From an uncultured Candidatus Saccharibacteria bacterium (GTDB lineage Bacteria > Patescibacteriota > Saccharimonadia > UBA4664 > CAZJNH01), in assembly GCA_964547425.1 (NCBI GenBank), contig CAZJNH010000004.1, positions 7,226-71,225 on the forward strand: a DNA stretch of 64,000 bases, read 5' to 3'. Shown in pieces: positions 15-46,969 of this stretch. The translations under genes were made by a program, and so were the position numbers. The notes under the pieces were generated by a model that saw nothing but the letters and a program-made list of their open reading frames with translations, ran no database searches and was not told the DNA's origin. Each line of letters opens with the position of its first letter. The first letter of the stretch is position 1.

Positions 15-548
15 TTGAAGCGACAACAAGGGTTCACACTGTTAGAGCTTCTTATCGTCATCGTGATCATCGGTATCCTCGCGGTCATTATTGTTCCGGG
101 TCTGTCCAGCGGTCCGAAGAGGGCCCGTGACGCCCAGCGCAAAGCTGACATGCGCGGAGTCAAAAACGCTCTAGAGACTTTCTACAACGACAACAACTCC
201 TACCCGGTTCAGACCACTACTGCCAGTACAACCGGCTTGACGGCCACTGCGTTGATCAACGCTACCACCGGTATCGTCACCAACTACCTGCCGGCGTTGC
301 CTTGTGACCCGCGCTCTAGTGTTAAGACCACGACGACAACCTCAACTCTCTGTACCGACACCGTAGACGGTTCGAACACCCTGCGTTATCTGTACAAGTC
401 AGCCGCCGCTGGTGCTGCCTACCGCGTATGTGCCACCCTCGAAAACGCGCAAGATGGCGATGATGGTAACACTACTTCGAACGTTTCCGAAGGTTACTCG
501 GTCACCAGTATCAACGGTACTGCTCCTGGTACTCTCTGTACCACCTAA
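15..548 (+). CDS. pilA: type IV pilin (prepilin-type N-terminal cleavage/methylation domain), paralog 1
   Basis: The TTG-initiated leader is MKRQQG|FTLLELLIVIVIIGILA, with G at -1, F at +1 and E at +5. The body is Thr/Ser-rich (TTTASTTGLTATAL, KTTTTTSTL) with C-terminal Cys residues. It is about 75% identical to the ORF at 2896. Confidence 0.8.
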   Translation: MKRQQGFTLLELLIVIVIIGILAVIIVPGLSSGPKRARDAQRKADMRGVKNALETFYNDNNSYPVQTTTASTTGLTATALINATTGIVTNYLPALPCDPRSSVKTTTTTSTLCTDTVDGSNTLRYLYKSAAAGAAYRVCATLENAQDGDDGNTTSNVSEGYSVTSINGTAPGTLCTT

Positions 549-599: not shown

Positions 600-2225
600 C
601 TAGTGGGTTCGGCGGAGCAAAATGTAGCTGTAGGCGCCGATCCGGGAAATGGTTTTGACACTGTAGTGGGGCTTAAGCTGGGAGAGCCCCTCGTCGTTCA
701 CGATCGCCGTTTTAATCTGGTCGTCTTTGGTCACATCGGCAACGTCAGCTAGCGTGCTGGCCTCGAAGACCGGTCGATCAGTGTAGGTTAAAACTACGAA
801 GGATGACAAGGTTTGCTGCTCAGTGGGGTAAACCACAATCGGGCCTGGTGGAGCATACTTAGCCTGCCTGGACAGTTCCGCTACTGGCTGGGCATTTTGA
901 ATATAGTCAGCCGTGTAGAGCCGGTACTGTGAGGCAAAGGGGTAGACCGAGACACCGACTAAGATCGCACCCGAGAGTACCAATCCCGCTTTGAGCCGTG
1001 AGGAGTCGAACTGAAGAAAGCAGAAGGCCACCGCTCCCGAGAGGACAAAGATAACCGCGAGCAACGCGGTGTTGGAGCTAACCGTAAACGGGCAGGTGTA
1101 AAGAGCTGCCAGACTAGCCGCGATTAAACCGAGGATGGGTACCAGCCGCTTGCCTCGAAAAGCGTTAACTACCGTGACCGCCACCATAATCGCCAGAGCC
1201 GGGTAGGCCGGCGCGGTGTAGTGGATGATCTTGGTTTTAAGCAGTGAAAAAAATACAAATACGACTACCGTCATCACTAGTAACAACCGCTGGGGGCCTT
1301 TTTTACGCCAGTTCTCCACGATGGAGCCGGCGAAGCCGAATGGGAGCAGGAAAATCCAGGGGTAGAGCCGCGAATACAGGATTTCTAAGTAGTAGCTATT
1401 GCCACGATTGACGATAAAACCGACAGAGGCGTTGGAGTTGTAAGGGTCAACCACCGAGTCTTTAATCCGTTTCCATATGTGGAACCCAAAATAACTGTCC
1501 CAAAACTGGTGTCCCCACTGCATGAGTTCGGCGAAGTGCCAGGGCGCGGTGATGGCAACCGCGATGCCGCCGGCGATCCACAAATGCTTGCTGCGTAAAT
1601 ACTCTTTAATTTCTCCGTTCCAAGCCCAGACAAGTGCCAAAATGACGGGGATCAGTAGGGCCGTTGGGCCTTTAGTAAGAGCGCCAAGGCCAATAGCCGC
1701 CCCGAGCAAATAATAGAATTTGGGGCTTTCTTTGAGCCGCAGGGCAAAGTAAAAGGCCAGCCACCAGAAGAAAATCATCGGGCCGTCGAGGCGGCCGATG
1801 CGGAAAACATGGATTAGGCCGAAAGAAGTTAAAGCGACGTAAGCAGCGGCTAAACCGACGGTTTTGTCGTAGAGCCGTTTGGCGATGGCGTAGGTCAAAA
1901 CAATCGTGCCAATACCGGCCAATCCAGAGGGCAAGCGCGACCAAAACTCGATTTGGCCGGGGAGGCGGATTAGCAGGGCCTTGAGCCAAATAATCAGAGG
2001 GGGTTTTTCGAACCAAGGTACCAAGGAGCCGTCGGGGTTAAAGCGCCAGAACAGCGTGATCCAGTTGCCCGTTCGGTTGATGTTGTGGGCGACTTGGTGG
2101 TAGATCATCTCGTCACCGTCAAAAAATCGGTAACTGCCGAGCTTATATAAATACGCGCCGGAGCCGGCCAGTACTAGTAGCAATTCCGCCCAGTATCTTT
2201 TGGCCAGCTTCAGCGCTGATTGCAT
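600..2225 (-). CDS. GT-C fold glycosyltransferase, family 39/83-like (protein O-mannosyltransferase / ArnT-like)
   Basis: A 541-aa polytopic membrane protein. The N-terminal loop carries the DGDE motif (FFDGDEMIYHQVAHN) typical of PMT/ArnT-type enzymes. Many TM helices. Confidence 0.65.
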   Translation of the reverse strand: MQSALKLAKRYWAELLLVLAGSGAYLYKLGSYRFFDGDEMIYHQVAHNINRTGNWITLFWRFNPDGSLVPWFEKPPLIIWLKALLIRLPGQIEFWSRLPSGLAGIGTIVLTYAIAKRLYDKTVGLAAAYVALTSFGLIHVFRIGRLDGPMIFFWWLAFYFALRLKESPKFYYLLGAAIGLGALTKGPTALLIPVILALVWAWNGEIKEYLRSKHLWIAGGIAVAITAPWHFAELMQWGHQFWDSYFGFHIWKRIKDSVVDPYNSNASVGFIVNRGNSYYLEILYSRLYPWIFLLPFGFAGSIVENWRKKGPQRLLLVMTVVVFVFFSLLKTKIIHYTAPAYPALAIMVAVTVVNAFRGKRLVPILGLIAASLAALYTCPFTVSSNTALLAVIFVLSGAVAFCFLQFDSSRLKAGLVLSGAILVGVSVYPFASQYRLYTADYIQNAQPVAELSRQAKYAPPGPIVVYPTEQQTLSSFVVLTYTDRPVFEASTLADVADVTKDDQIKTAIVNDEGLSQLKPHYSVKTISRIGAYSYILLRRTH

Positions 2226-2294: not shown

Positions 2295-2630
2295 CTAAGA
2301 AGAATGTTTTTCGAGGATAGCACCGAAAATCCTAGTTAGACTCCGAGCCTCTTCGATCAGGGATTGGTCGGAACGTAACAGCCTTAACCAGAGAGCGCTT
2401 TCTTTTGCTTCTTTCCGACAGATCTTGATTCGCAGGATATAGTCCTTATTACTCAACGCTTCGACAGCTTCGATGAAATTGGCGGCTACGGAACCTGAGG
2501 ATCGCACCAGTTGCTTGGCATCCTCTCTCGCAACAATGGACTGAGGTTGTCTTTTAACTAGATCTCGACAATCTTGCGCGAACTTAAACGTCCTGTCTTC
2601 TAGTCCGTATTTTTGCTCGGTTGCTTGCAT
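2295..2630 (-). CDS. four-helix-bundle protein (23S rRNA intervening-sequence-protein family)
   Basis: 111 aa. The segment LVRSSGSVAANFIEA and the overall pattern match the small four-helix-bundle family often found inside intervening-sequence hairpins. It lies between the inverted arms of the element. Confidence 0.6.
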   Translation of the reverse strand: MQATEQKYGLEDRTFKFAQDCRDLVKRQPQSIVAREDAKQLVRSSGSVAANFIEAVEALSNKDYILRIKICRKEAKESALWLRLLRSDQSLIEEARSLTRIFGAILEKHSS

Positions 2631-2742: not shown

Positions 2743-2895
2743 GGTAAGTTTCTGCTACTATACTGATAGCGGTTACGTTTCAGATTTTTAGTTAATTCTT
2801 CATAAGAGGCGGACATCATTTCTCTAGGTAAGCGCAATCAAAACAGGAGGGGTTTTTGGCTGGAACATGGAATCAAACATGCCCACGGGTTTACC

Positions 2896-3405
2896 TTGCT
2901 TGAGCTGTTGATCGTTATCGTAATCATTGGAATTCTTGCAATTATCATTGTTCCCGGCCTCGCCAGCGGCCCAAAGCGCGCTCGCGACGCAAATCGTAAA
3001 TCTGACTTGCGCGGCCTCAAGAACTCCCTCGAAACTTTTTACAACGACAACAGCTCCTACCCGGTACAAACCACCACCGCCAGCACCACGTCCCTTACCG
3101 CCACCGCTTTACTCAGCTCTACTACTGGTGTTGTACCAAATTATCTGCCGGCTTTCGAGTGCGACCCGAGATCAAGCGTGAAAACCACCACCACCACCTC
3201 CACTCTTTGTGTCGACACGGTTGACGGCTCCAATACCCTGCGTTACCTCTATAAATCGGGTTCTTCAGGTTCTTCTTACCGCGTCTGCGCGACGCTTGAG
3301 AACGCTCAAGACGGAGACGATGGCAACACAACTACAAACGTGTCCGAGGGGTACTCCGTGGTCAGTGTGAACGGTACCGCTCCCGGCACCCTCTGCACTA
3401 CTTAG
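2896..3405 (+). CDS. pilA: type IV pilin paralog 2 (start codon anomalous)
   Basis: The product (…HAHG)FTLLELLIVIVIIGILAIIIVPGLASGPKRARDANRK… is collinear with paralog 1. An AGGAGG Shine-Dalgarno sits at 2845-2850. There is no in-frame ATG or GTG before the G|F cleavage site. The only in-frame candidates are CTG at 2860 or ATC at 2872, or the TTG at 2896 which would delete the leader. Confidence 0.7.
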   Translation: MLELLIVIVIIGILAIIIVPGLASGPKRARDANRKSDLRGLKNSLETFYNDNSSYPVQTTTASTTSLTATALLSSTTGVVPNYLPAFECDPRSSVKTTTTTSTLCVDTVDGSNTLRYLYKSGSSGSSYRVCATLENAQDGDDGNTTTNVSEGYSVVSVNGTAPGTLCTT

Positions 3406-4398
3406 ATGGCAAGATTGGGACGAATTTTCAAACACCTCCGCGACCAACGCGGTTTTACTTTTATTGAGGTCATAACCACATCTGTAATCATCGGCATCGG
3501 CTTTACGGCCATCTTTGAAACCTTTATTGCCGCCAACAACCTGAACCGCCAATCAGCTCAGTATCTGGCCGCGTCCAAGTTCGCCCAAACCGAGCTCGAC
3601 TACTACCGCAGCCAGCTGTTCACTACCGACGTCACAGCTACTAGCGAAACCGACAGCACAAGTTTACTTAGTGGCAGTACCGACGTTTCCGGCTCAATGC
3701 CCAGCTTACCTGGGGGCACCGCAATTAGCTGCTCCTCGGCGGCATCAGGCACCTTAGGCAAATACGCTTGCGTAACTGTCGCGGCTGTCGAGACTGGGAT
3801 GTACCGTGTCACAGTGTTTGTAGGTTACCGCGAAGGCGGGACGGCCGAAAGAACGGTGCAGTTGAGCACGTACGTCGCCCAAAACGGCGTCGGCACCAAT
3901 CCCACCGTCTGGAATTATTACTTTGATCATTCCGATGCAGGACCAGCGAGAAGTATATTCACCCAGCCATCAACCTGGACCAATTCCTCAAACGCGGTTG
4001 ACGGAAGCATAGCGACCGCCTCAACGAATTCAAGTGGTCCCAGCTCCTGTTCGGTGTCTCAGAACGGTTTCACCGAGAACGGATGTATGTTTATTTATGG
4101 AACTAATTCGCCGCCACAGGGCGGAACGGGTATTACAACGGTCAAGGCACGGATATACGGCTCTAACTCTACCGCATACATCTATCAAGGTTGTACGAGT
4201 GGAACTTCCTGTTGGGGGACGGCTTTGGCAACCCTAACAATGCCCAGCGGTAGTGCTACTTTTGGTAGCTGGGTTACATTATCTGCGCCCAGTGGGGGTT
4301 GGACTTGGCCGATTTTGAAACACCTCGTCTTGGGAGTAAACGGTTGCTCTACGGTTCCTTGCTCGATCTCAGAAGTTCAACTCCGGGTGTTCCAGTGA
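3406..4398 (+). CDS. minor pilin / pseudopilin (prepilin N-terminal domain), 330 aa
   Basis: The N-terminus is MARLGRIFKHLRDQRG|FTFIEVITTSVIIGIGF. The body is Ser/Thr-rich with a C-terminal Cys pair. Confidence 0.7.
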   Translation: MARLGRIFKHLRDQRGFTFIEVITTSVIIGIGFTAIFETFIAANNLNRQSAQYLAASKFAQTELDYYRSQLFTTDVTATSETDSTSLLSGSTDVSGSMPSLPGGTAISCSSAASGTLGKYACVTVAAVETGMYRVTVFVGYREGGTAERTVQLSTYVAQNGVGTNPTVWNYYFDHSDAGPARSIFTQPSTWTNSSNAVDGSIATASTNSSGPSSCSVSQNGFTENGCMFIYGTNSPPQGGTGITTVKARIYGSNSTAYIYQGCTSGTSCWGTALATLTMPSGSATFGSWVTLSAPSGGWTWPILKHLVLGVNGCSTVPCSISEVQLRVFQ

Positions 4399-5078
4399 TG
4401 AAATTACTGCGCAACCAACGCGGATTTACGTTGTTGGAGATGACAATTTCGACCGTTATGTTTAGTGTCTTGATCGTAGTTATCTCCGGGATGGTTTCGA
4501 TTGGAATCACCAATTTCGTGCAAGGAGATGCCTACAACCAAGCCCAAAACGAAGCCAATGTGATCCTAAATGACATTGTCAGCAACATTCACCGCGGCAG
4601 CTCGGCAATCAATGCATGCTCCAACTACAATGACGCTCATCGTACCGATTGTAGCTTTGCCCTTTCTGGCTTCACCGTAGATATTCCGGCGCTCGATTCC
4701 AGCGGTAATGTCCTATATACCGATAACACCCATCGCACCATTTGCACCAACGAAGTTGTCTACTTCGGTTATATTGGTACGGGAACGGGCGGTCCTCTTT
4801 ATCGCCGAAGTATTGAGAGCTCTGGGAGTCCCTCAAGTTGTACGGCAACCAACGCGACAGTCAACAGCTGCCAACCCGGAGGAGGTTGTAGTGCCACAGA
4901 CTCTACTTTGGCCAGAAACTTTTACGCGTTGACCGTCACCGACTGCGCCGGAAACGCGAGCCTGACTAACAAGACATGTTTGAAGCTCGTCCTGACCATC
5001 AAGAAAAAAGTCAGCGGCCGCACCATTACACTGAGTTATACCAGCTACGCTACCCTAAACAGTAAAGGAACCGTGTAG
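4398..5078 (+). CDS. minor pilin (prepilin N-terminal domain), PilW/FimT-like
   Basis: The ATG at 4398 overlaps the upstream stop (TGATG). The N-terminus is MKLLRNQRG|FTLLEMTISTVMF. The ORF-track start at 4299 is probably too far upstream. Confidence 0.65.
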   Translation: MKLLRNQRGFTLLEMTISTVMFSVLIVVISGMVSIGITNFVQGDAYNQAQNEANVILNDIVSNIHRGSSAINACSNYNDAHRTDCSFALSGFTVDIPALDSSGNVLYTDNTHRTICTNEVVYFGYIGTGTGGPLYRRSIESSGSPSSCTATNATVNSCQPGGGCSATDSTLARNFYALTVTDCAGNASLTNKTCLKLVLTIKKKVSGRTITLSYTSYATLNSKGTV

Positions 5079-7780
5079 TGAATAAATGGTTCAGCAGAGG
5101 AGTCTTGAGTGAGCCGGCCGCGGTCGTCATCTTCGCGTTTATGATTATTGCGCTGGCTGTTGGCACTGCCGCGACCAGCCAGTGGACTTACTCCCACAAA
5201 AGCGCTTACGACACCATGGCAGTTGCTGCCGCTCAGGCCGGGCTTGATCATGCCATCTTGAAGCTCAATACCGACGAGAACTACTTTTCTGGGCCTTTAG
5301 CCTCCGGCGATACTGGCACCGGAGCGGGCAATAGCGAGGTGTCCCTGGAGCAAACCCTCTCCTCCTCAGGTCAATTTACGATCACTTACATAATCGCCTC
5401 GGTGAGCGATGGTAGTGCTTACAGCCAAACAGGTTACGAAAAGAACGTAACGGTTCAAGGGCGTGTCTACCAGAACAGTACCGGTAAACTACTTTCCAAA
5501 AGGGATGTCAGCGCTGGTCTTGAAGTTGGCTCCCAAAATTTCCCTTATCAGGTCCAAGCCGGGTATGGGCATATCACACTTCAAGACATCTCCACAGTTA
5601 ATACCACAAATGCCAACGGCCGGATCTTTAGCAACGGTAGTATCCGTATAACCAACTCCGCCGTTTTAAAAGGCTACGAAGTTGGAGCTGGCGACTTCGA
5701 ATGCCCGCTCGCGGGTGGAGCGACTTACCCGACTGGCGGTGCTGACACCGGAGGCCGCTGCACAGCCGCCCAGCAAGTAGCCCTTCAGTCTTATGCTGGC
5801 TCTCCAGGTAGCAGTACTTTGCTTCATTTAGCTCATGGCGCGAGCGATATATCCGGAGGTTTTACTCCTAATCCACCAACCGATAATGTTGGAACCGTAG
5901 TCCCAATGCCTGGTCAAACAGGATACGGAACAAACTACCCCAGCTGGCCGGACGATAGCCGCAACGGTGTAATTAACTCCATCGACACAGCATTAACCAA
6001 CGCCCCTCAAAACTGCGGTAGCACCGCCAGCTGGGTTAGCTTAGGTAACATTCATATTACCAACGGGTTTAGCCTAAACGGCAGCTGTGTTCTAACCATC
6101 GGTGGCAATATTTGGGTCAATAACAATATAGCCAGTACTGCTGCAAACACCTTTATAGTTTCAGACACCGACAAGAACGGGAACCCAATCCGCCGTCCCT
6201 TGATTGTGATGGTTGATGGTGCCACAAGCTCGGGATTCTCAGCCACGGATAACATCCAGCTGTTTGATAACTTTCACGTTACGCCTAACAAGTACGGAAT
6301 GGGTATAATTTTTGAAAGTGAGTACTGTGGCAGTGGTTGTGATCCTAGTATCGGGCCGGCTATACCAAGCAGTACGTTTTATAGCTCTACTTCAAACAGA
6401 ACTATTGACATTAACACAGAGGCTACCCAGGCTGCGCCAACCAGACAGATTACTTTGGATCAATCGGTACTTTTTGCCAAATGGGGCTACGTTGGCTTTG
6501 CCAACAATTCTGGCGGCACAGACCATGCTATGGTCAGGTCGCCTTATTGCATTGACGCGGTTGGCCAAAGTGTAATATTTCCTACGGTGGTTACCGGTTC
6601 AGATCTACATACTATTGATTGCTCTTTTTCCGGCGCCAGCTTAACGGGCGCCTCATACGTCAACTTGGGTCAGCTAAGCGGCAAAGTCTTTAAGGTCGGC
6701 GGCTACAAAGAAACCGCCGGCGGGAACTACGCCACTATTAATGTCATCGATACCTCTGGCGATGCAAACGCCAATCCGGGTAACGGAGATGGTGCTGTTA
6801 CGGTTGGCACCGACGGATTCCCGGTTGGCCACTACTACGATCGAATCTTCCACTGCTCAAACATATACTGCACGTTCAAGACAAACGTGGGCGGCGGATC
6901 CTACTCAAATAGTACAGCCAATATTGGGAGTGACAACTTACCGATAACGACCGATTCGTACTCCTGGCTTGATGCGAGTCATTGTAATAACGTTTCTTGC
7001 TCGAGTAATGCTAACTCATCAGTAGATTCAGGAAGCGCTGTGGGTTACCACAGCGATACGGCTATTGGAAGCGATGGATTCCCAGTAATTGCTTATAATG
7101 ATAGCACCGGCGCTATTAAGGTTGCGCACTGCGGCAACGTGTCGTGTTCGAGCGGTAACACAATTACCCCCCTCGGAGCTGCGCTCGGGTTCTCTGTCTC
7201 AATCGCGAAGGGCAGCGATAATTTACCGGTAATCTCATACCTAGGGCCGTCAAGCACTTATCCTCTAAAAGTAATTCACTGTGGCAATGTTTTATGCTCA
7301 AGCGGAAATGTAACTACTTCCGTTGACCCCAATCCTAACGCCAGTCTCAGTGGAACAAGTATTACAATCGGTAGTGACGGTTTTCCAATCATTGCTTACT
7401 TTACCAGTGGCAACACTTTGAGGGTTGCGCATTGCGTGAACGTATCATGTTCGAGTGGAAATGGCATTGTGGCCGTTGGTTCTAATAATCTTTCATCGGA
7501 TCCGGTGATTATTATAGGTAGCGATAATTTACCGAAAATCTTCTCCTACAACTCTGCTGATAAGCAAATATTAGTTGCATATTGCACAAACGTAAGTTGT
7601 ACTACCTGGGTCCGCCCGTTCGCTGCCGTCGTAGGCGGACCACTTGATGTCAGCTCAGGATCGTGGACCCCACATATAGGGGTTGCACTTGGGAGCGAAG
7701 GTTTTCCAATACTCTTTTATTACGATAATGTCTTACGTCAGTTCAGACTTTTACGTTGCGTAACCCAAACCTGTACCTAG
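5078..7780 (+). CDS. PilX_N-type pilus-associated large protein (putative tip adhesin) with C-terminal tandem repeats
   Basis: The N-terminus has a TM helix plus an AVAAAQAGLDHA motif like the PilX N-terminal domain. The 900-aa product ends in seven repeats of about 50 aa each (…IGSDGFPVIAY…L+VAHCGNVSCSSGN…). Confidence 0.6.
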   Translation: MNKWFSRGVLSEPAAVVIFAFMIIALAVGTAATSQWTYSHKSAYDTMAVAAAQAGLDHAILKLNTDENYFSGPLASGDTGTGAGNSEVSLEQTLSSSGQFTITYIIASVSDGSAYSQTGYEKNVTVQGRVYQNSTGKLLSKRDVSAGLEVGSQNFPYQVQAGYGHITLQDISTVNTTNANGRIFSNGSIRITNSAVLKGYEVGAGDFECPLAGGATYPTGGADTGGRCTAAQQVALQSYAGSPGSSTLLHLAHGASDISGGFTPNPPTDNVGTVVPMPGQTGYGTNYPSWPDDSRNGVINSIDTALTNAPQNCGSTASWVSLGNIHITNGFSLNGSCVLTIGGNIWVNNNIASTAANTFIVSDTDKNGNPIRRPLIVMVDGATSSGFSATDNIQLFDNFHVTPNKYGMGIIFESEYCGSGCDPSIGPAIPSSTFYSSTSNRTIDINTEATQAAPTRQITLDQSVLFAKWGYVGFANNSGGTDHAMVRSPYCIDAVGQSVIFPTVVTGSDLHTIDCSFSGASLTGASYVNLGQLSGKVFKVGGYKETAGGNYATINVIDTSGDANANPGNGDGAVTVGTDGFPVGHYYDRIFHCSNIYCTFKTNVGGGSYSNSTANIGSDNLPITTDSYSWLDASHCNNVSCSSNANSSVDSGSAVGYHSDTAIGSDGFPVIAYNDSTGAIKVAHCGNVSCSSGNTITPLGAALGFSVSIAKGSDNLPVISYLGPSSTYPLKVIHCGNVLCSSGNVTTSVDPNPNASLSGTSITIGSDGFPIIAYFTSGNTLRVAHCVNVSCSSGNGIVAVGSNNLSSDPVIIIGSDNLPKIFSYNSADKQILVAYCTNVSCTTWVRPFAAVVGGPLDVSSGSWTPHIGVALGSEGFPILFYYDNVLRQFRLLRCVTQTCT
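6780..7780 (+). repeat. 7 x ~150-bp in-frame tandem repeats inside the PilX-like gene
   Basis: The HC(x)NV(S)C(S/T) motif recurs at about 6851, 6981, 7130, 7278, 7430, 7579 and 7751. Each is preceded by IGSD(G/N)(F/L)P. Confidence 0.7.
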
Positions 7781-7841: not shown

Positions 7842-8900
7842 ATGAAAATCCCATTAGTGTACAGGCAGGGCGCTGTTTTTGGCTGTGACATTGGCAGCCA
7901 GACGGTGAAAGTAGTTGAATTGGGCGGAACTTATAAGAAGCCCAAGGTTGTTGGGTATGGCTACGCGCCGTTCGACCCAAAGACCATGGTTAAGGGCGCC
8001 ATCGCTAACCCCGAGGCACTGGCCAAGACGGTTAAAGCCCTGATTACCAAGCCTCAAACCGGGCAGATCAATGCCAAGAGGGTGGTGTCATCGATCCCCA
8101 TCTCCCAAGTCTTCGTTCGAACGCTGACTTTACCGCCGATGGACGCGGCCGATTTGGCCCAAGCCATCCAGCTGGAGGCCGAGCAGTACATTCCGGTGCC
8201 GGTAAGGGACCTATACATCGACCACGAAATCCTATCCCATAAAGTGGTGGGCAAGGAGTCAAAACTCGAAATCCAGATGGTGGCAGCTCCGCGCGCTATT
8301 ATTGACTCCTACATTCGCCTGTTCGACGCTTTGGGTTTGTTTACCGAGGTCATCGAGATCGGCCAGTCGGCCATCCTGCGCAGTTTGTTTTATAACGCCG
8401 GTGACATTACCCTTCTGGCGGACTTCGGTTCGGAGCTAACCGACTTTGTCGTCAGCGACCACGCTATCCGTTTAAGCTCCACTGTACCTGTAGGCGGAAA
8501 CAAATTGACTCAAGCCCTGCAAAAAGAGCTCAAGGTCACCGCCCAGCAGGCGGATGAGATCAAAAAACGTTACGGAATCGGTGAAAGCGGCCTGCGAAAG
8601 GAAATCCTAAAAGCGCTTAAAGATCCGTTAGATAGTTTGACCCACGAGATCTCCAAAGCCATCAAGTACTACCACGACCGCAGCGAAAACAACCAGTCAA
8701 TCCAGAAGATAGTTTTGTCCGGCGGCAGCGCCTATTTGCCCGGCTTAATGGAGTATCTAACCCAAACCTTCCGGCTGCCGGTAGTAATCGACGACCCGTG
8801 GCAAAACGTTAAGTTCGAGAAACTGCCGCAGCCATCGCCGCAGGAGAGGGCAATGTATACGACAGCGGTCGGGCTTGGGATTTTGGGGTTAAAGACATGA
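7842..8900 (+). CDS. pilM: type IV pilus assembly ATPase-like protein PilM
   Basis: Actin/FtsA-like fold. The N-terminus is VFGCDIGSQTVKVVEL, and the length of 352 aa is typical. Confidence 0.8.
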   Translation: MKIPLVYRQGAVFGCDIGSQTVKVVELGGTYKKPKVVGYGYAPFDPKTMVKGAIANPEALAKTVKALITKPQTGQINAKRVVSSIPISQVFVRTLTLPPMDAADLAQAIQLEAEQYIPVPVRDLYIDHEILSHKVVGKESKLEIQMVAAPRAIIDSYIRLFDALGLFTEVIEIGQSAILRSLFYNAGDITLLADFGSELTDFVVSDHAIRLSSTVPVGGNKLTQALQKELKVTAQQADEIKKRYGIGESGLRKEILKALKDPLDSLTHEISKAIKYYHDRSENNQSIQKIVLSGGSAYLPGLMEYLTQTFRLPVVIDDPWQNVKFEKLPQPSPQERAMYTTAVGLGILGLKT

Positions 8901-9436
8901 TTAATTTATTGCCGCCGGAAATTAAGGGCCAAATCGCTTTTTCTAAACGCAACGCCGCGCTAGTGCGGATCATTGCCGCGTTCGTCGCCTCCAGCGGAAT
9001 ATTGGGCGCCCTGCTGGTTTTTGGCTCCAAGAGCCTGGATGCCCAGGTGGTATCCGTCCAGCACGACTACGACAACCAGAAAAAGTCCTCGCCCGACAAC
9101 GGCAGTATCACCGCCCTGCAAGCCGTTAACCGCCGGTTAGCCATTATCCAGTCGCTTAACAACTCAAAACACCATTACTCGGCGTTGTTGCGAAGCCTTA
9201 GCGCCGCCATGCCAAGGGGCGCATACTTTTCGGTGATCGACCTGGCTGGAGACGACAAGCCGCTTAAATTAAGCATTCAGACCACCTCCTACTCGATCGC
9301 GACCAAAGTAAAGGATGCATTACTTAAATCGAAGCGGGTCGCGGGGGTAGACCTTGAAAGTATTGCCAAGGCCGACGCCGGCGGCGGCTACACGGTAGCG
9401 GTCACCATCGCTTTAAAACCGGGAGCTTCAAAGTGA
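8897..9436 (+). CDS. pilN: type IV pilus assembly protein PilN
   Basis: The MINLLPPE N-terminus is characteristic of PilN. It has a single TM helix and overlaps pilM by 4 nt. Confidence 0.75.
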   Translation: MINLLPPEIKGQIAFSKRNAALVRIIAAFVASSGILGALLVFGSKSLDAQVVSVQHDYDNQKKSSPDNGSITALQAVNRRLAIIQSLNNSKHHYSALLRSLSAAMPRGAYFSVIDLAGDDKPLKLSIQTTSYSIATKVKDALLKSKRVAGVDLESIAKADAGGGYTVAVTIALKPGASK

Positions 9437-9978
9437 GCCCGCGCCAATTCTTCTTCGGCTTAATTTCCCTTACCATCGTGGTTTTAATTGGCGGAGGCTA
9501 CTTCTTTTTCCATGCCACAAATAAATATAGCCAGGGTAATAAAAAACTGGACAGATTGCTGGCAGACATTAAGGTGCTGCAAGACCAGTCGCAGCGCCAA
9601 CGCCAATTAAAACACGATTACGACCATAAAGTGGTACCTAAACTACCGTTACTCGACCGGGCTCTGCCCAAAGATAAAGACCAGGCCTTAGCCACCCAGC
9701 AAATCAGCGATCTGGCGGCCAAAAATGGCGTCGCGTTCACGAACATCCAGTTCACCCCCAGCCAAGGCCCGTCTGCTACCAGCCAGACCCAATCCGCCAA
9801 CGGCGTTTTGGCGTTGCCGATCAGCTTTAGCACTACCGGTAGTTATAACCAAATCCAGGAGTTTTTGCAGGGTATCGAAAACTTTCCCCGGGAGTGTGAC
9901 ATCGTCAACGTAAGCTTGAGCGCGTCGGAGAATACCGTGTCGGCCAACTTAATCGTAAATATGTATCTACTGCCATGA
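9433..9978 (+). CDS. pilO: type IV pilus assembly protein PilO-like
   Basis: It sits at the position of pilO, with an N-terminal TM helix and a coiled-coil segment. Confidence 0.55.
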   Translation: MSPRQFFFGLISLTIVVLIGGGYFFFHATNKYSQGNKKLDRLLADIKVLQDQSQRQRQLKHDYDHKVVPKLPLLDRALPKDKDQALATQQISDLAAKNGVAFTNIQFTPSQGPSATSQTQSANGVLALPISFSTTGSYNQIQEFLQGIENFPRECDIVNVSLSASENTVSANLIVNMYLLP

Positions 9979-10241
9979 CTTTTAAACTGAAACTCAGTTT
10001 GCCGAAGGTCGATTTCCAGCGCTACCTGGGGCCAGGAATTTCGATTCTGGTTCTGCTGGCTTTTATGTACGTGGCGTTCTTGATCCGCGGCAGCCAAAAC
10101 CCGCAGGCCGATCCGGTGTACTTAAAACAGCAGATCGACAAGTTCGACCAAACCAAGATCCAGATCAAAACCGCCCAGCTTAACGCTCTGGGCAAAACGC
10201 CGGCCTCGGTTTCGCCGGGACGCAACCCGTTTAAACCTTAG
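9975..10241 (+). CDS. small membrane protein, possible PilP-like pilus assembly component
   Basis: An 88-aa protein with one TM helix, overlapping pilO by 4 nt. Assigned by operon context only. Confidence 0.3.
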   Translation: MTFKLKLSLPKVDFQRYLGPGISILVLLAFMYVAFLIRGSQNPQADPVYLKQQIDKFDQTKIQIKTAQLNALGKTPASVSPGRNPFKP

Positions 10242-12135
10242 CCGGCTTCGCTAGATTCTTTTGCGCCCAAGTATGGTGGCGGACTATTGCCCGCGCTCCA
10301 ACGGCGCTCCACAGCTGAACCTTGTTCATCGGCCCTTCGGCCCTCGATTGGTCGTTGTAAAAGTGGGCTTTGCCGTTTTTGTGGTAGTGAAGCTCCGTCG
10401 CGCCGATTTGGTTGATGGCCGACAAACTGGCTTCGGCGGTTTTTACTAAGGTTTCTTGGAGCAGCTGGCAGGTTTTTTCGCTAAACCGACTGGACTCGAG
10501 CTGGCGGACTAGACCGGCGGTGACAAAGGCGGTTTGTTTGGTCCAGCTGACGCGGCCGTGATAATCCAGGGTGGAGTAACCGTCTTTGGCACCAACCAGC
10601 GTCGGACCGGCCGGAGTGTAAAAGTATTTTTCACTTAACAACCGGCGGCAGAAACTGTCGAGGTCAGCCTCGGTCGGTTCACCGTAAAACAGGTCGTAAG
10701 CTTCGTCTGTGTGGTTCACCTCCAGCGTGCGGTACTGCAGTTTGCCATCTTCGGATTTGATGTCGTAAAGCGCCAGCGCCATGGCGGTCTCCCCGTCCCG
10801 GTTAATAAAGCGGTAGAGGTCTTTGACCTTTGACCATTTGGCGACGAGATGGGTTAGGGTCGCTTCCGGAAAACCAAAGAACTGGGCATGCTGTTTGATC
10901 AGCTCGAGTGCCTGGGGGTAAAACACCGCGTTAACGTCGTACGGCGCGATGATCGGGTGGACCATCTTGAAGGCCCGTTCGCTGTCACGCCAGTTGCCGG
11001 CGCCGTAGTACTCTTCGCGCCGGTGGCGGCGAAACAGTTCGGGAATTTTTTTGAAGGTTATCAGGTCGTTGGCGGCGGCTTCGGATACCAGATAATGAGC
11101 TGAGCGCTTTAACCTTTCTTGGTCGTGCTCCGAGAAGTCGCTAGGCTTAATCCGCTGCAACCCCAAAATGTAGTGTGGCTCGATGTCGATCATATTGCGG
11201 ATGATGTACATTTCCTGGACCTTTTTGACCAGATCCTGCATTAGCCGGCCAAGGCGGCTTTCGCGCTCCAGCAAATCGTCGAGGCTACCAGGGAACTCAT
11301 CGGCCTGCCGGCTTTTTTCGGCCTCCAGCTCGCCGGTGATGTTTTCGTGCCAACCGATGCCGACGGGATTAACCAGCGCCAAAGCTTTGCTGTACATATA
11401 TCGCCTAACATTAAGCAGGAGGTCGCCTTCACCTAGGTCCGCGGATTCCATCCAGTCGCGAGGAAACACCGTGCCGTAGTCGAAACCGCTGGTACGGTCG
11501 TTGCGGATTAAAAAATCTATCTCCCCAGACAGCCGGTTCATCAATCCGCCGCGATCGGCCGACGAGTTCACTCGGGTTTTGGCTACCGCGTGGCTAACTT
11601 CCGGCCGCGGCGGTTTGGGGTTGTCGGTCGTCAGCTTGAAGCTGATCGGTTTAGCGGTTCGGCTTTTTAGCCAGTAGCCATGGTGTGACTGCTGGCGGTG
11701 AACCTCGACCGATTTGTCTAAAGTGATTTTAACCCCGTACCAGGTGTTTTCGTAGAACCGGCGGTAGGTTAATTCAAAACCCCGCTCGGTGGCCTCGCCG
11801 CCGACGAAGTGCGGCAAAATGGCATCCGGATGCCGCCGCATTACCTGGGCAAAGGTTGGTTTCGGTTTGCCCGGCGGCTCAATCAGCCCGCGTACTCGCA
11901 GCATCGGCCCGATAGCCGGATCGTGGAAAAAAAGTTTCGAGTGTTTGAAGCGACCGCTAATTTTGACTTCGCCGCTGGCCAGCAGTTTTACATCTTCAAC
12001 CTCAAAGTCAGCTTGGTTTAATCCAACGGTTGCAAAGTAGAGGTGGTTGTCGGGTCCGGCGATCCGCAGCTGCTCATGCTCATCGATGTCGATATAGTAG
12101 GCGGACTCTAACCAAAGATTGTCATCAATTTTCAT
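10231..12135 (-). CDS. large conserved hypothetical protein (possibly (alpha/alpha)6-barrel glycoside-hydrolase-like)
   Basis: 634 aa with no signal peptide. The fold assignment is weak and rests on the C-terminal region only. Confidence 0.3.
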   Translation of the reverse strand: MKIDDNLWLESAYYIDIDEHEQLRIAGPDNHLYFATVGLNQADFEVEDVKLLASGEVKISGRFKHSKLFFHDPAIGPMLRVRGLIEPPGKPKPTFAQVMRRHPDAILPHFVGGEATERGFELTYRRFYENTWYGVKITLDKSVEVHRQQSHHGYWLKSRTAKPISFKLTTDNPKPPRPEVSHAVAKTRVNSSADRGGLMNRLSGEIDFLIRNDRTSGFDYGTVFPRDWMESADLGEGDLLLNVRRYMYSKALALVNPVGIGWHENITGELEAEKSRQADEFPGSLDDLLERESRLGRLMQDLVKKVQEMYIIRNMIDIEPHYILGLQRIKPSDFSEHDQERLKRSAHYLVSEAAANDLITFKKIPELFRRHRREEYYGAGNWRDSERAFKMVHPIIAPYDVNAVFYPQALELIKQHAQFFGFPEATLTHLVAKWSKVKDLYRFINRDGETAMALALYDIKSEDGKLQYRTLEVNHTDEAYDLFYGEPTEADLDSFCRRLLSEKYFYTPAGPTLVGAKDGYSTLDYHGRVSWTKQTAFVTAGLVRQLESSRFSEKTCQLLQETLVKTAEASLSAINQIGATELHYHKNGKAHFYNDQSRAEGPMNKVQLWSAVGARAIVRHHTWAQKNLAKPAKV

Positions 12136-43632: not shown

Positions 43633-44994
43633 TCAGAACGACTCTGCAGGACCCTCGGGGTTTGAATACCAAAGATTTTCTCCTTTTGATTTTTGAGACA
43701 AAATTTTCCCAGCCTTCCTCAGTCTAAATAAGGTGTCTTTAACCATCCTGCCAGTCAATCTGAGTCCAGCTGGGGCTTCAACCGATTGCATAATCTCGTT
43801 GAACGATCGGGGCGAGCCTCCCAGTAACCCAAGTACCATAATATTTTGATCTTCTTGGGGGAAACGGTTGGCTTCGGGGGAAGCCACAGCAGCTTTGGCT
43901 ACTAGCTGCCTGACCATTTCGGGGTTGCTGATAATATCATGGGCAAGGGCTTTACCTTCAGCAAGGAAAGTCTCTTTTCGAGTCGAAAAGTTTTCCAGGA
44001 TGTTAAGTGCCTCTTGCAGGGTCTCCCTTGACTCTGGTTCAATACTGATATCTGATAACTCCTGCAGATTGTACGTAGGAATGGCTAATCCTTGGTCGCG
44101 AAATCCAGTTAGGATGTAGTTCACATTGCTCCGCAAGCTTTTTTGTTCACTGTACGTTGAGTTCTGTTCAATTACATCATTGACAATAGACTCGGTGGTT
44201 AGCTCAACTCCCTCCTGCTTTGCAAGCAAACTGTTAATACTATCCGCAACGGCTTTCGAAAGTCCTGGCTGCTCAAAGCGAGGTTCGTATTCGGTAATTG
44301 TTTCAGGAAATTCATAACTGGGTTTCAGTCCCTTTGCAGAGGTCGCATCTATTTGGATTAAGCCTACCTGCTCAAGTTGCTGTAGTTGATTTCTGACCGT
44401 ATTACGCGATCCCTGCTCAACCGAGCTATAAAGAGATGCCAGATTTATGGGTAATTCATTTGTTAGCAGCTCCCTTAGGATCTCGATACGGCGATCGGGG
44501 GATCTTTTGTCCGCAGTTTTCGAATGAGTAAGCCCAAAAACTTCTTTGAGACTTTCTTTATGCTCTGAGGAAAATTTAAGTAGGTGCCCAGCCAGCGGCA
44601 CACCAAGCTCCATACCTTTTTCAGTTACGGTGTATCTAGCTCCTTGACCTGTAATCTCCTCTTTCGCTACTAGACCTATGGGGGCAAACGAGTCCTTACA
44701 ATAATCGAACCCCAGGCTTATATTTCCTTTCCACACCAAGTCTTCACCTTGAGTGTTGCGAAAAGCTCGAGCTAGGTCGCTACGGCCAAAGTCCTTTCGA
44801 GGGTGTTCAGCCATGGCCAGGAAAATAATGGCCTTTGCCTCATGATTCCCAACGGCGGATACAAGCTGTCCAAGTTCCTGGTCACTAACACGCTCGGGTG
44901 TAGTTTCGATCTCTTCTTTTTCTAAGAGTTCAGCCGCGAGTTCGCGGTGGCTAAACTTGCTTTGCTCACCAGATTCGGATTCTTGTTCATTCAT
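43633..44994 (-). CDS. hypothetical protein with repeated winged-helix-like segments (low GC)
   Basis: Lower-GC codon usage. Several segments resemble the ends of HTH/winged-helix domains (…QLQQLEQVGLIQID). The start was set at MNEQ (44994) so that the upstream repeat lies outside the gene. Confidence 0.4.
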   Translation of the reverse strand: MNEQESESGEQSKFSHRELAAELLEKEEIETTPERVSDQELGQLVSAVGNHEAKAIIFLAMAEHPRKDFGRSDLARAFRNTQGEDLVWKGNISLGFDYCKDSFAPIGLVAKEEITGQGARYTVTEKGMELGVPLAGHLLKFSSEHKESLKEVFGLTHSKTADKRSPDRRIEILRELLTNELPINLASLYSSVEQGSRNTVRNQLQQLEQVGLIQIDATSAKGLKPSYEFPETITEYEPRFEQPGLSKAVADSINSLLAKQEGVELTTESIVNDVIEQNSTYSEQKSLRSNVNYILTGFRDQGLAIPTYNLQELSDISIEPESRETLQEALNILENFSTRKETFLAEGKALAHDIISNPEMVRQLVAKAAVASPEANRFPQEDQNIMVLGLLGGSPRSFNEIMQSVEAPAGLRLTGRMVKDTLFRLRKAGKILSQKSKGENLWYSNPEGPAESF

Positions 44995-45047
44995 TGTCCA
45001 TATGATAGCAAAAAACGACCTGCCAGGTCGTTTAAGCATAGGGGCTA

Positions 45048-45065
45048 TGTCTCCGGGGGCGAGAT
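45048..45065. repeat. 17/18-nt direct repeat of the tRNA-Asn 3' end (att-like remnant)
   Basis: tgtctccgggggcgagat here matches tggctccgggggcgagat at 45181-45198. Confidence 0.5.
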
Positions 45066-45180
45066 AGCGGCTTCGCCTTCTCCGCTTCGCTACGACGAAC
45101 TCCCTGCTTCGCAGCCGAGTTCTCATCTCGGCCTGAAATCAAAAAGGTGTGGCAATGACGCGAGGTCATTTCCACACCTT

Positions 45181-45484
45181 TGGCTCCGGGGGCGAGATTC
45201 GAACTCGCGACCAATTGATTACACCGATCCCACTGTTTCCAATGAGGGTGGACTATATCATCATCCGCCGGTGGGCGGAGCGGGGCGCTTCCTCTTACGA
45301 GTACTCTCTTGCGAGATAGTCTCTGAACCTTACCCTCGCCTTTAAGAAAAAGACGAGGGGCTTGGCTGCTGATTACCTTATTCTAGGAACTTAGGTTTCC
45401 AGCAATTCACCCCGTTTTTCAAACCCGATTACTCGGGCAAGCTGCCTTTTGACAGTCAACTGCTCTACCGCTGAGCTACCCCGG
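45181..45484 (-). tRNA. tRNA-Asn(GUU) interrupted by a group I intron after nt 36
   Basis: Joining exons 45451-45484 and 45181-45221 gives TCCGGGGTAGCTCAGCGGTAGAGCAGTTGACTGT|TAATCAATTGGTCGCGAGTTCGAATCTCGCCCCCGGAGCCA. This has U1-A72, G73 and the loop CUGUUAA, as in E. coli tRNA-Asn. A rho-independent terminator lies at 45140-45180 on the minus strand. Confidence 0.75.
45222..45450 (-). ncRNA. group I self-splicing intron (229 nt)
   Basis: The 5' exon ends in U and the intron ends in G. P1 pairs the exon CUGU with intron GCAG. The P (AAUUGCUGGAAAC), Q (AAUCAGCAGCC), R (GUUCAGAGACUA) and S (GAUAUAGUCC) elements are all present, and GACUA pairs with UAGUC to form P7. Confidence 0.75.
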
Positions 45485-45865: not shown

Positions 45866-46969
45866 TTATTCTAGCGATTTTTTGGCTTGGGGTAAAGGAG
45901 TTGCGGCTTGCTCGACGGCGCGATAATAGATTTCTTCGTAGCCGTCGGTCATCCGTTGGGCGTTAAAGTTCGTTAGTGCGTGTTCCCGGCAGGCTTTGCG
46001 GTTAATCCGATGGATTTTGCCGATCGCTTCCGCCATGCCTTCCTCGTCGTGGACCACGTAGCCGGTTTTGCCATCAACAATAATCTCCGGAATCGATCCC
46101 ATGTTAAACGCCACGACTGGAGAGCCGCAGGCCATCCCTTCGATCAGAGTAAGCCCAAAGGGTTCGGGCCAAGTGACCGGATGAAGCATACACAAAGCGC
46201 CGCTCATCAGCTTGGTTTTTTCGGCGTCATCGACCTCTCCGACCCATTTAACCTGGCCGTTAAGGTAAGGCTTCACATAGGTGTGGAAGTACTCCATATC
46301 GGCCGGGACGTCTTCGTTTAGCTTGGCGGCGATAATTAACGGGATTCCTAAGGCTTGGGCAACCGCGATGGCGTGGTGGGTGCCTTTTTCCATACAGATA
46401 CGCCCGACAAACAGTAAATAGTTGCCGGCTTTTTGGCCAAACGGATAATGCTGCATCGACAGGCCGTTATAAACCGTACCAGCGGTTTTGATCCGGGTGT
46501 GATGGGCCGTCTGGTTGTGTGAAATCGATACCAGATGAGGGCGGTTGAGTTCCTCGTATACCCGGTCGGTTCCGGCCTCGATCGGCCCGTGCAAGGTCAT
46601 CACCACCGGAGTTTCGGCGATGTTTGCCACCGGCAAACTTAGCATTATGTGGGCATGGTCATGGATAATGTCGAACTCTTTCTGATGTTTGTAGACCAAC
46701 CCAATATTTAACGCTGTGTAGGAGTTAACGCCGTAAAGTTCTTTGACTTTGTCTAGGCGCAAGGCGTGGGGATGAACATACACCAGTTTGGCGGAAGTAA
46801 GGGAGTCGCCGCTGGCAAATAAGGTAACTTCGTGGCCGCGGCGGACCAACTCTTCAGTTAACTCATAAACGACGCGTTCGGTCCCCCCATATTTCTGGGG
46901 CGGAACGCGTTCGACCAACGGGGCGACCATAGCGATTTTTAGTCGACGAGGCTGGGATTCTTTAGGCAT
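45866..46969 (-). CDS. glycosyltransferase family 4 (GT-B)
   Basis: N-terminus KIAMVAPLVERVPPQKYGGTERVV. The C-terminal region resembles the nucleotide-binding domain of retaining GT4 enzymes. Confidence 0.75.
   Translation of the reverse strand: MPKESQPRRLKIAMVAPLVERVPPQKYGGTERVVYELTEELVRRGHEVTLFASGDSLTSAKLVYVHPHALRLDKVKELYGVNSYTALNIGLVYKHQKEFDIIHDHAHIMLSLPVANIAETPVVMTLHGPIEAGTDRVYEELNRPHLVSISHNQTAHHTRIKTAGTVYNGLSMQHYPFGQKAGNYLLFVGRICMEKGTHHAIAVAQALGIPLIIAAKLNEDVPADMEYFHTYVKPYLNGQVKWVGEVDDAEKTKLMSGALCMLHPVTWPEPFGLTLIEGMACGSPVVAFNMGSIPEIIVDGKTGYVVHDEEGMAEAIGKIHRINRKACREHALTNFNAQRMTDGYEEIYYRAVEQAATPLPQAKKSLE

What the first reader, a model, noticed from the sequence alone, without database searches (positions are those of the whole stretch)
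5078..7780. 900-aa PilX_N-type pilus protein with seven novel Cys-containing ~50-aa tandem repeats
The N-terminus is a TM helix plus an AVAAAQAGLDHA motif, like PilX N-terminal domains. The C-terminal 330 aa consist of seven in-frame repeats, each with IGSD(G/N)(F/L)P(V/I)I(A/S)Y … L(K/R)VAHC(G/x)NV(S/L)C(S/T)SGN. I do not recognise this repeat as a known adhesin or β-propeller family. Following two major pilins and two minor pilins and preceding pilMNO, it is a good candidate for a pilus-tip adhesin. In an epibiotic Saccharibacteria-type organism that would suggest host attachment.
Basis: partly seen in the sequence, partly recalled or inferred. Interest (0 to 1): 0.7.

Follow-up and report, generated by a model that had tools for sequence, protein, structure and literature searches.

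The report
Pilus cap protein with lectin-like propeller
This gene most likely encodes the cap subunit of a type IV pilus in a Saccharibacteria-like bacterium, extended by a seven-bladed, lectin-like propeller that probably binds sugars on the host cell; a similar protein has already been described in a cultivated relative, so it is a new variant and not a new kind.

Summary
Window 5078-7780 (+) is a 900-aa ORF with an N-terminal hydrophobic helix and seven C-terminal ~45-50-aa repeats, each ending in CxxxxC. Each repeat scores 17-65 bits against a family unit HMM; shuffles reach at most 6 bits.

The protein has three modules:
- **Pilin head (aa 11-151).** A 55-residue helix plus a β-sheet, with no canonical G|FTLxE motif.

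The repeat is not unique. More than 1,000 proteins carry it, and 829 of 830 blades keep the Cys pair. No Pfam or NCBIfam model covers it. It is a remote relative of the PLL lectins and recurs at the ends of fibres: MAT fibres, collagen-like stalks and prepilins.

The head-plus-solenoid module is the conserved gene before pilMNO in Saccharibacteria-like pilus loci, usually about 470 aa without a propeller. Only this protein and one relative carry the fusion.

The tip-adhesin reading is well supported by inference, but TM7x PilX2, ComZ and cyanobacterial PilX anticipate it. Verdict: new variant of a known kind.

The parts
5078..7780 (+). Whole gene: 900-aa trimodular PilX/ComZ-class pilus protein (GTG start, stop codon included)
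   Evidence: conserved N-terminus with P0002
5078..5272 (+). aa 1-65: short leader (MNKWFSRG|VLSEP, no canonical G|FTLxE, Glu at +4 not +5) and a long hydrophobic alpha-1 helix (aa 11-65) including the PilX_N-like AVAAAQAGLDHA motif
   Evidence: AF2 helix 11-65, pLDDT 86-94; PilX_N hits in 9 of 48 relatives
5375..5530 (+). aa 100-151: three long antiparallel strands forming the pilin-head beta-sheet
5552..6619 (+). aa ~159-514: beta-solenoid module made of many short strands, with disordered loops at aa 242-270
6686..6715 (+). aa 537-546 (KVFKVGGYKE): strand after the solenoid, inferred to return to the pilin sheet; propeller-less relatives end just after the equivalent strand
   Evidence: E537-546
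6716..6793 (+). aa 547-572: linker; the junction YKE[TS][AG]GGNY is shared with P0002
6794..6874 (+). Propeller blade 1 (aa 573-599), degenerate; Cys 593/598
   Evidence: unit HMM 17.4 bits
6911..7009 (+). Blade 2 (aa 612-644); Cys 636/641
   Evidence: 16.7 bits
7025..7165 (+). Blade 3 (aa 650-696), near consensus; Cys 685/690
   Evidence: 65.2 bits
7187..7312 (+). Blade 4 (aa 704-745); Cys 735/740
   Evidence: 47.3 bits
7355..7465 (+). Blade 5 (aa 760-796); Cys 786/791
   Evidence: 59.0 bits
7493..7603 (+). Blade 6 (aa 806-842); Cys 836/841
   Evidence: 24.5 bits
7652..7777 (+). Blade 7 (aa 859-900); Cys 894/899; the protein ends one residue after the second Cys
   Evidence: 17.1 bits
3406..4398 (+). 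Minor pilin (330 aa, G|FTFIE), weak PilV/GspH/GspJ-like; likely partner in the tip complex
4398..5078 (+). Minor pilin (226 aa from ATG 4398, G|FTLLE); 1-nt overlaps with both neighbours (TGATG, TAGTG) suggest translational coupling
15..548 (+). Major-type pilin (G|FTLLE)
2896..3405 (+). Second major-type pilin paralog (true start probably upstream, see Noticed in passing)
7842..9978 (+). pilM (7842-8900), pilN (8897-9436), pilO (9433-9978): pilus alignment subcomplex immediately downstream

Best explanation
The gene encodes the capping (PilX/GspK/ComZ-class) minor pilin of the core type IV pilus of a Saccharibacteria-like bacterium. Its N-terminal hydrophobic helix and small beta-sheet head let it join the two upstream minor pilins in the priming complex that ends up at the pilus tip. 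Because it lacks the canonical Glu5 it can only be the terminal subunit. A rigid ~350-aa beta-solenoid is predicted to be inserted in the pilin head, as in ComZ, and to act as a bulky plug or stalk. In this lineage a seven-bladed propeller, probably stiffened by disulfides and of the PLL-lectin type, has been added to the C-terminus. It is displayed at the distal end of the pilus, where it most likely binds cell-surface glycans of the host or prey bacterium multivalently, through sites between the blades. Pilus retraction would then pull the epibiont onto its host. Shown here: gene, repeats, operon position, predicted folds, family relationships, and the variable presence of the propeller. Inferred: tip location, disulfides, glycan binding and the host-attachment role.
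Confidence: 0.6

Rival explanations
1. It is a tip-located DNA receptor of a competence pilus. Like ComZ, the pilin-plus-solenoid module, and perhaps the propeller, bind extracellular DNA for uptake, which nucleotide-auxotrophic Saccharibacteria need.
Against: The protein is acidic overall (37 K+R against 59 D+E; propeller 12 against 21). The propeller's closest structural and sequence relatives are lectins, and the same domain decorates adhesive fibres. The ComZ DNA-binding lysines were not mapped here. ruvABC adjacency is simple synteny on the opposite strand.
Confidence: 0.12
2. It is a pilus-tip enzyme. The propeller is a polysaccharide lyase or hydrolase, or another catalytic propeller, that locally degrades host cell-wall or capsule glycans, like a phage tailspike carried on a pilus.
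Against: Foldseek places 24 lectin chains before any enzyme, with a gap in E-value. Family-level sequence hits are to lectin models, not enzyme families. No enzyme Pfam or NCBIfam hit was found. The most conserved residues are structural (Gly, Asp, Pro, Tyr, Leu, Cys repeated in every blade) rather than a single active site.
Confidence: 0.1
3. It is not part of the filament. It is a membrane-anchored surface or periplasm-like protein that only primes or plugs assembly, with a PilY1-like regulatory role, and the propeller acts in cis at the cell surface.
For: It has no canonical prepilin cleavage motif. TM7x PilX1 and PilX2 are also not predicted PilD substrates. PilY1 also carries a seven-bladed propeller.
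Confidence: 0.13

Closest known systems
Nanosynbacter lyticus TM7x PilX2 (Grossman et al., bioRxiv 2024, PMC11623550)
   Same: Saccharibacteria. It is the largest minor pilin of its set, has a non-canonical (non-PilD) leader and a C-terminal seven-bladed propeller whose best structural matches are PLL/CV39L lectins, and is proposed as a tip adhesin. Deletion halves host binding.
   Different: PilX2's propeller is described as RCC1-repeat type; this protein has no RCC1 hit at E<=1 and uses a Cys-pair repeat family. PilX2 lies in a pilin-only locus serving a second pilus, whereas this gene lies next to pilMNO in the core locus, in the slot occupied in relatives by a propeller-less ~470-aa protein.
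ComZ of Thermus thermophilus (PDB 6QVI; PMC6561018) and cyanobacterial PilX proteins (bioRxiv 10.64898/2026.02.12.705559)
   Different: 12% sequence identity. ComZ has no C-terminal propeller. ComZ binds DNA, and nothing here shows that. The insertion topology is inferred from secondary-structure order only.
PLL / PHL / CV39L seven-bladed beta-propeller lectins (Photorhabdus, Chromobacterium; PMC6943638)
   Different: 12-16% identity, far below the curated cutoff. PLL lectins are free soluble proteins, and their Cys residues form intermolecular bridges. Here every blade carries an invariant CxxxxC, the Trp residues of the sugar sites are not evidently conserved, and the domain is fused to a pilin.
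PilY1 / PilC tip adhesins of Proteobacteria
   Same: A large pilus-associated protein with a C-terminal seven-bladed propeller that works with the PilVWX minor pilins at the tip, combining plug and adhesin roles.
   Different: PilY1 is a separate non-pilin protein with a Sec signal. Here the propeller is covalently fused to the PilX-class cap itself. No PF05567 hit, and PilY1 is not among the top structural matches.
Modular pilins of Streptococcus sanguinis (PilB vWA, PilC lectin; PMC8179133) and Bdellovibrio MAT fibres (PMC10769870)
   Same: The same design principle: a binding module grafted onto a filament or fibre subunit. 17 of 90 members of this propeller family carry the MAT-fibre N-domain.
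   Different: The grafted domains and scaffolds differ, and there is no sequence relationship to the S. sanguinis modules.

Membership tests
PilX/GspK-class capping minor pilin (Pfam PilX_N, PF14341) | Match to the PilX_N HMM at or above the gathering score (25.5 bits) | tested here: not met
   No PilX_N hit at E<=1 for this protein. 9 of 48 relatives of the N-module hit it, best E 6e-5. Homology is supported only transitively.
PilX/GspK-class capping minor pilin (Pfam PilX_N, PF14341) | N-terminal hydrophobic alpha-1 helix and pilin-type beta-sheet head | tested here: met
PilX/GspK-class capping minor pilin (Pfam PilX_N, PF14341) | Lacks the conserved Glu5 of polymerising pilins | tested here: met
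   The leader reads SRG|VLSEP (Glu at +4, no Phe1), whereas the four upstream pilins have G|FT[LF][LI]E. The cleavage site itself is unproven.
PilX/GspK-class capping minor pilin (Pfam PilX_N, PF14341) | Encoded with GspI/J-like minor pilins in a pilus operon | tested here: met
   The same gene order is seen in L001, L003, L004, L005 and L006.
PilX/GspK-class capping minor pilin (Pfam PilX_N, PF14341) | Physically located at the pilus tip | not testable with these tools
   Needs immunogold EM, cryo-ET or pilus proteomics.
ComZ-like pilin with inserted beta-solenoid | Pilin fold plus a large beta-solenoid | tested here: met
ComZ-like pilin with inserted beta-solenoid | Solenoid inserted between the penultimate and last strand of the pilin sheet | tested here: inconclusive
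   A strand at aa 537-546 follows the solenoid, and the short relatives end right after the equivalent strand. Coordinates were not inspectable.
ComZ-like pilin with inserted beta-solenoid | DNA binding | not testable with these tools
   The protein is net acidic.
PLL/CV39L beta-propeller lectin family (NCBIfam NF052350, NF052348) | Seven-bladed propeller of ~48-aa W-motifs | tested here: met
PLL/CV39L beta-propeller lectin family (NCBIfam NF052350, NF052348) | Score above the curated HMM cutoff (350 bits) | tested here: not met
   No hit for this protein. Relatives hit at E 1e-3 to 6e-14 but far below the cutoff. No PDB sequence hit with the family profile.
PLL/CV39L beta-propeller lectin family (NCBIfam NF052350, NF052348) | Inter-blade sugar sites with a stacking Trp | tested here: inconclusive
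   Only 3 Trp in the 345-aa domain against one per site in PLL lectins (PMC6943638). No residue-level superposition was possible.
Cys-pair seven-blade repeat family (uncurated; >1,000 proteins) | Seven ~48-aa units G-x-D-G-x-P-x-I-x-Y ... L-K-V-x-H-C-x4-C | tested here: met
   Seven unit-HMM hits. E down to 1e-148 to family members. 108 of 121 members have seven units. 829 of 830 blades keep both Cys.
PilY1/PilC (Pfam PF05567) | Match to the Neisseria_PilC/PilY1 HMM | tested here: not met
   No hit at E<=1. Not in the top structural matches.
TM7x PilX2-type propeller pilin | RCC1-type repeats in the propeller | tested here: not met
   No RCC1 Pfam hit at E<=1. The repeat belongs to a different sequence family.
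TM7x PilX2-type propeller pilin | Sequence homology to TM7x PilX2 | not tested

The most novel reading that the evidence does not exclude
The Cys-pair propeller is an uncurated, widespread receptor-binding cartridge that bacteria graft onto the distal ends of unrelated fibres: MAT trimers, collagen-like stalks and pilins. In this Saccharibacteria lineage it has been fused directly to the PilX cap of the core, probably essential, type IV pilus, so the cap itself became the host-recognition lectin. Its gain or loss between genomes that share ~80% RuvB identity would then be a switch of host range for an obligate epibiont.
Probability: 0.3. Interest if true: 0.65.

Novelty: new variant of a known kind. 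Interest (0 to 1): 0.45.

Why it matters
How ultrasmall epibiotic CPR bacteria recognise their host cells is largely open. The only genetic evidence so far points to a propeller-bearing PilX on a type IV pilus of TM7x. This locus shows a second way to reach the same design. It is probably independent, although homology to PilX2 could not be tested. A lectin-type propeller from a different and very large uncurated repeat family is fused to the ComZ-like cap of the core pilus, and it is present in one close relative and absent in another. That gives a concrete, testable candidate for a host-specificity determinant. It also identifies a family of more than 1,000 proteins, with seven invariant Cys pairs, that deserves a curated model and a solved structure.

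Tried and rejected
- Full-length and N-terminal word-indexed searches found only the protein itself and P0002. The exhaustive profile search was needed to find the ~50 propeller-less relatives.
- Direct sequence searches against PDB with the protein, the family profile and canonical member P0005 found nothing at E<0.1.
- The Pfam DUF1936 and Metallothionein hits in relatives cover only the 14-residue Cys segment and were dismissed as compositional.
- The weak hits to phage baseplate hub and DUF7288 were not reproducible across relatives.
- No DNA-level tandem repeat is present.
- The blade-by-blade comparison with P0002 gave no diagonal signal, so a shared versus independent origin of the two propellers could not be settled that way. 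Only the shared junction motif favours one ancestral fusion.
- The AFDB fold library was unavailable.
- The PLL structure paper PMC5122772 was not held.
- Cluster look-up gave no taxon names.
- Promoter and terminator scans were at chance level.
- I considered a metal-binding role for the CxxxxC pairs. I rate it below disulfides because the proteins are extracellular and the pairs sit in separate blades, but I could not measure distances in the model.
Full report
**1. Observation**

Window 5078-7780 (+) is an uninterrupted 900-codon ORF. Its GTG start overlaps the stop codon of the upstream minor-pilin gene (TAGTG). An AAAGGA Shine-Dalgarno-like sequence lies 8 nt upstream. The first residues (MNKWFSRGVLSEP...) are conserved in the only full-length relative, P0002 (MKTFWQKGVLTES...).

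The C-terminal third contains seven repeats. Each has a G-[ST]-[DE]-[GN]-[FL]-P motif followed about 20 residues later by CxxxxC. A 48-position unit HMM built only from other proteins finds exactly seven units (aa 573-599, 612-644, 650-696, 704-745, 760-796, 806-842, 859-900). They score 16.7-65.2 bits, while 200 shuffles of the region never exceed 6.1 bits. Tandem Repeats Finder sees nothing at the DNA level, so the repeats are ancient and diverged. Neither the repeat nor the N-terminal module occurs anywhere else in the window.

**2. Context**

The gene is the last of a run of pilin genes:
- Two major-type pilins (15-548 and 2896-3405).
- Two minor pilins with canonical G|FT[LF][LI]E leaders (3406-4398 and 4398-5078).
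- This gene.
- pilM, pilN, pilO and a conserved 88-codon ORF.

The three genes 3406-4398, 4398-5078 and 5078-7780 are joined by 1-nt overlaps.

The only full-length relative, P0002 (879 aa, 35% identity), lies in a fully syntenic locus of an uncultured Candidatus Saccharibacteria MAG. The gene order there is pilB, pilC, pilins, PMT glycosyltransferases, pilins, this gene, pilMNO, an 88-aa ORF, a 640-aa gene and ruvBAC. RuvB is 82% identical between the two genomes, PilM 64%, and this protein only 32%. So the protein evolves quickly.

**3. The N-terminal 555 residues**

Curated libraries give nothing significant for this protein, and PilX_N does not hit at E<=1. Word-indexed searches found only P0002.

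An exhaustive profile search of 1.84 billion representatives found 52 proteins at E<=1e-3. Nearly all are 450-500 aa, so they are this module alone. For four of them I obtained genomic context. Each follows minor-pilin genes, and the three contigs that extend far enough (L003, L004, L006) show it directly upstream of pilM. One of these organisms (L003) has RuvB 80% identical to the window's, yet its protein is 484 aa with no propeller.

Scanning all 48 aligned members against Pfam, the two most frequent families are PilX_N (9 members, best E 6e-5) and DUF7305 (9 members). Bactofilin-type solenoid hits come next.

AlphaFold2 with this alignment gives a moderately confident model (pLDDT 75, pTM 0.75). 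It shows:
- A 55-residue helix (aa 11-65).
- Three long antiparallel strands (aa 100-151).
- About 25 short strands (aa 159-514).
- A final strand at aa 537-546.

This protein reads SRG|VLSEP. It has no Phe1 and its Glu is at +4, unlike its four upstream neighbours. I therefore place the N-module in the PilX/GspK/ComZ class on structural and contextual grounds. The HMM criterion is not met for this sequence itself.

**4. The C-terminal 345 residues**

Searched alone, this region has more than 1,091 homologs at E<0.01, the best at 1e-148. So the repeat is not peculiar to this protein.

The family consensus unit is DsxGxVGxYTSIAIGaDGLPVISYyDxTNgdLKVAHCGNaaCSsGNt. Of the 121 best hits, 108 have exactly seven units and the domain is normally C-terminal. 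Of 830 fully aligned blades, 829 keep both cysteines.

No Pfam or NCBIfam model covers the family. The Pfam DUF1936 hits touch only the 14-residue Cys segment.

AlphaFold2 with 122 sequences gives a confident all-β model (pLDDT 87.8, pTM 0.89) with 27 strands. Two methods agree on its closest structural relatives:
- **Foldseek against the whole PDB:** more specific. The first 24 chains are all PLL, PLL2-5, PHL or CV39L lectins (E 4e-12 to 9e-8, TM up to 0.78), and other propellers begin only at E 3.6e-7.

Sequence evidence points the same way at family level. Of 90 members, 29 hit NCBIfam CV39L_fam_lectin (best E 9e-10) and 20 hit beta_propeller_lectin (best E 6e-14), all far below the curated cutoffs. 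The window protein itself hits neither. A family profile finds no PDB sequence at E<0.1. The domain is thus a distant, uncurated branch of the PLL-type propeller lectins.

Two features differ from PLL lectins. Each blade here has an invariant CxxxxC in the loop between the third and fourth strands (model residues 130 and 135 flank strands 125-129 and 140-143). PLL lectins use Cys only for intermolecular bridges and rely on a Trp in each inter-blade sugar site (PMC6943638). This domain has only three Trp. A disulfide in each blade is the most economical reading, but it is inferred, not measured.

**5. What the family's other architectures say**

Among the 90 members scanned:
- 17 carry the N-terminal domain of Bdellovibrio mosaic adhesive trimer fibres, the chimeric prey-recognition fibres (PMC10769870).
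- About 7 carry collagen-like adhesin stalks.
- 5 carry genuine prepilin leaders. Four of 121 have G|FTLxE by regex.

The propeller is always distal. This recurrent placement at the far end of fibres supports a binding function, independently of the fold matches.

**6. Synthesis and mechanism**

The protein is a three-part fusion: a cap-type pilin head, a ComZ-like solenoid and a PLL-like propeller.

The first two parts form the conserved gene of this slot in Saccharibacteria-like core pilus loci. The third part is present only in this protein and P0002 among 1.84 billion representatives, and absent in an equally close relative. The junction (YKE[TS][AG]GGNY followed by a similar first strand) is shared with P0002, which favours one ancestral fusion. 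Blade-by-blade correspondence could not be shown.

The composition is 41% Gly/Ala/Ser/Thr, matching the pilins here and not the cytoplasmic proteins. The TM7x study used the same criterion.

The most likely mechanism is as follows. The protein nucleates pilus assembly with the two upstream minor pilins and ends up as the terminal subunit. The solenoid plugs and stiffens the tip. The propeller binds host surface glycans multivalently, and retraction draws the cell to its host.

The rivals rank lower (DNA receptor, tip enzyme, non-filament plug). The reasons are the protein's net negative charge, the lectin-first fold ranking, the family-level lectin hits, the absence of enzyme-family hits, and the fibre-tip architecture of relatives.

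**7. Comparison with what is known**

The idea is not new. Grossman et al. (PMC11623550) showed that TM7x has two large PilX proteins lacking PilD signals. PilX2 carries a heptabladed propeller that they superposed on CV39L and likened to PLL lectins and PilY1, and its deletion lowers host binding from about 10.6% to 4.6% of host cells bound.

The window protein differs in three ways:
- **Repeat family:** no RCC1 hit.
- **Locus:** it sits next to pilMNO rather than in a pilin-only locus.
- **Architecture:** it combines a ComZ-like solenoid with the propeller in one chain.

I could not align it with the TM7x sequences.

**8. Verdict**

It is a new variant of a known kind. Interest is moderate at 0.45. 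The most useful outputs are a concrete host-specificity candidate and an uncurated propeller family of more than 1,000 proteins with seven invariant Cys pairs.

Noticed in passing
window 45229-45468 (-): Strong group I intron match (RF00028, 100.5 bits, E 7e-25, full-length model). It lies between a 497-aa ORF with no Pfam hit (43633-45126, -) and a GT4/GT1 glycosyltransferase (45866-46969, -). No tRNA is found at the site and there is no rRNA in the window, so its host gene is unclear.
   Followed up: partly
window 600-2225 (-); L001 4557-7741: A PMT/PMT_2-family glycosyltransferase sits between the two major-pilin paralogs, and the Saccharibacteria relative has two in the same place. The pilins carry Thr-rich tracts (TTTASTTGLTATAL, KTTTTTSTL), which suggests pilin O-glycosylation.
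   Followed up: no
window 2806-3405 (+): The second major-pilin paralog has no ATG, GTG or TTG before the conserved helix. The frame is open upstream and reads ...IKHAHG|FTLLELL, with ATC where the first paralog has its start codon, and an AGGAGG lies about 20 nt upstream. It is either a non-canonical start or a paralog that has lost its start.
   Followed up: partly
window 2295-2630 (-): A 111-aa gene of the '23S rRNA-intervening sequence protein' family (PF05635, E 5e-10) is inserted between the PMT gene and the pilin genes.
   Followed up: no
window 10231-12135 (-); L001 14976-16898; L003 4045-5967; L004 11467-13374: A 634-aa protein with no Pfam hit is 49-63% identical in relatives and always lies between the pilO/88-aa genes and ruvB. 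It is a conserved unknown next to the pilus locus.
   Followed up: no
window 9975-10241 (+): An 88-aa ORF overlapping the end of pilO is conserved (44-49% identity) at the same position in relatives and has no family assignment. It may be an additional small pilus-assembly component.
   Followed up: no
family members P0004, P0005, P0012 and others (C-termini): Many members of the Cys-pair propeller family end in a conserved tail after the last blade (C-x-P-[YF]-x-R-[RP]-R, for example PYFRRR or PYHRPR). This might be a sorting or anchoring signal. The window protein lacks it and ends one residue after the last Cys.
   Followed up: no
window 5078-5104: The public annotation of this gene (P0001, 891 aa) starts nine codons downstream of the conserved N-terminus and so removes the RG|VLSE leader. 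A second assembly (P0173, 900 aa) uses the longer start.
   Followed up: yes
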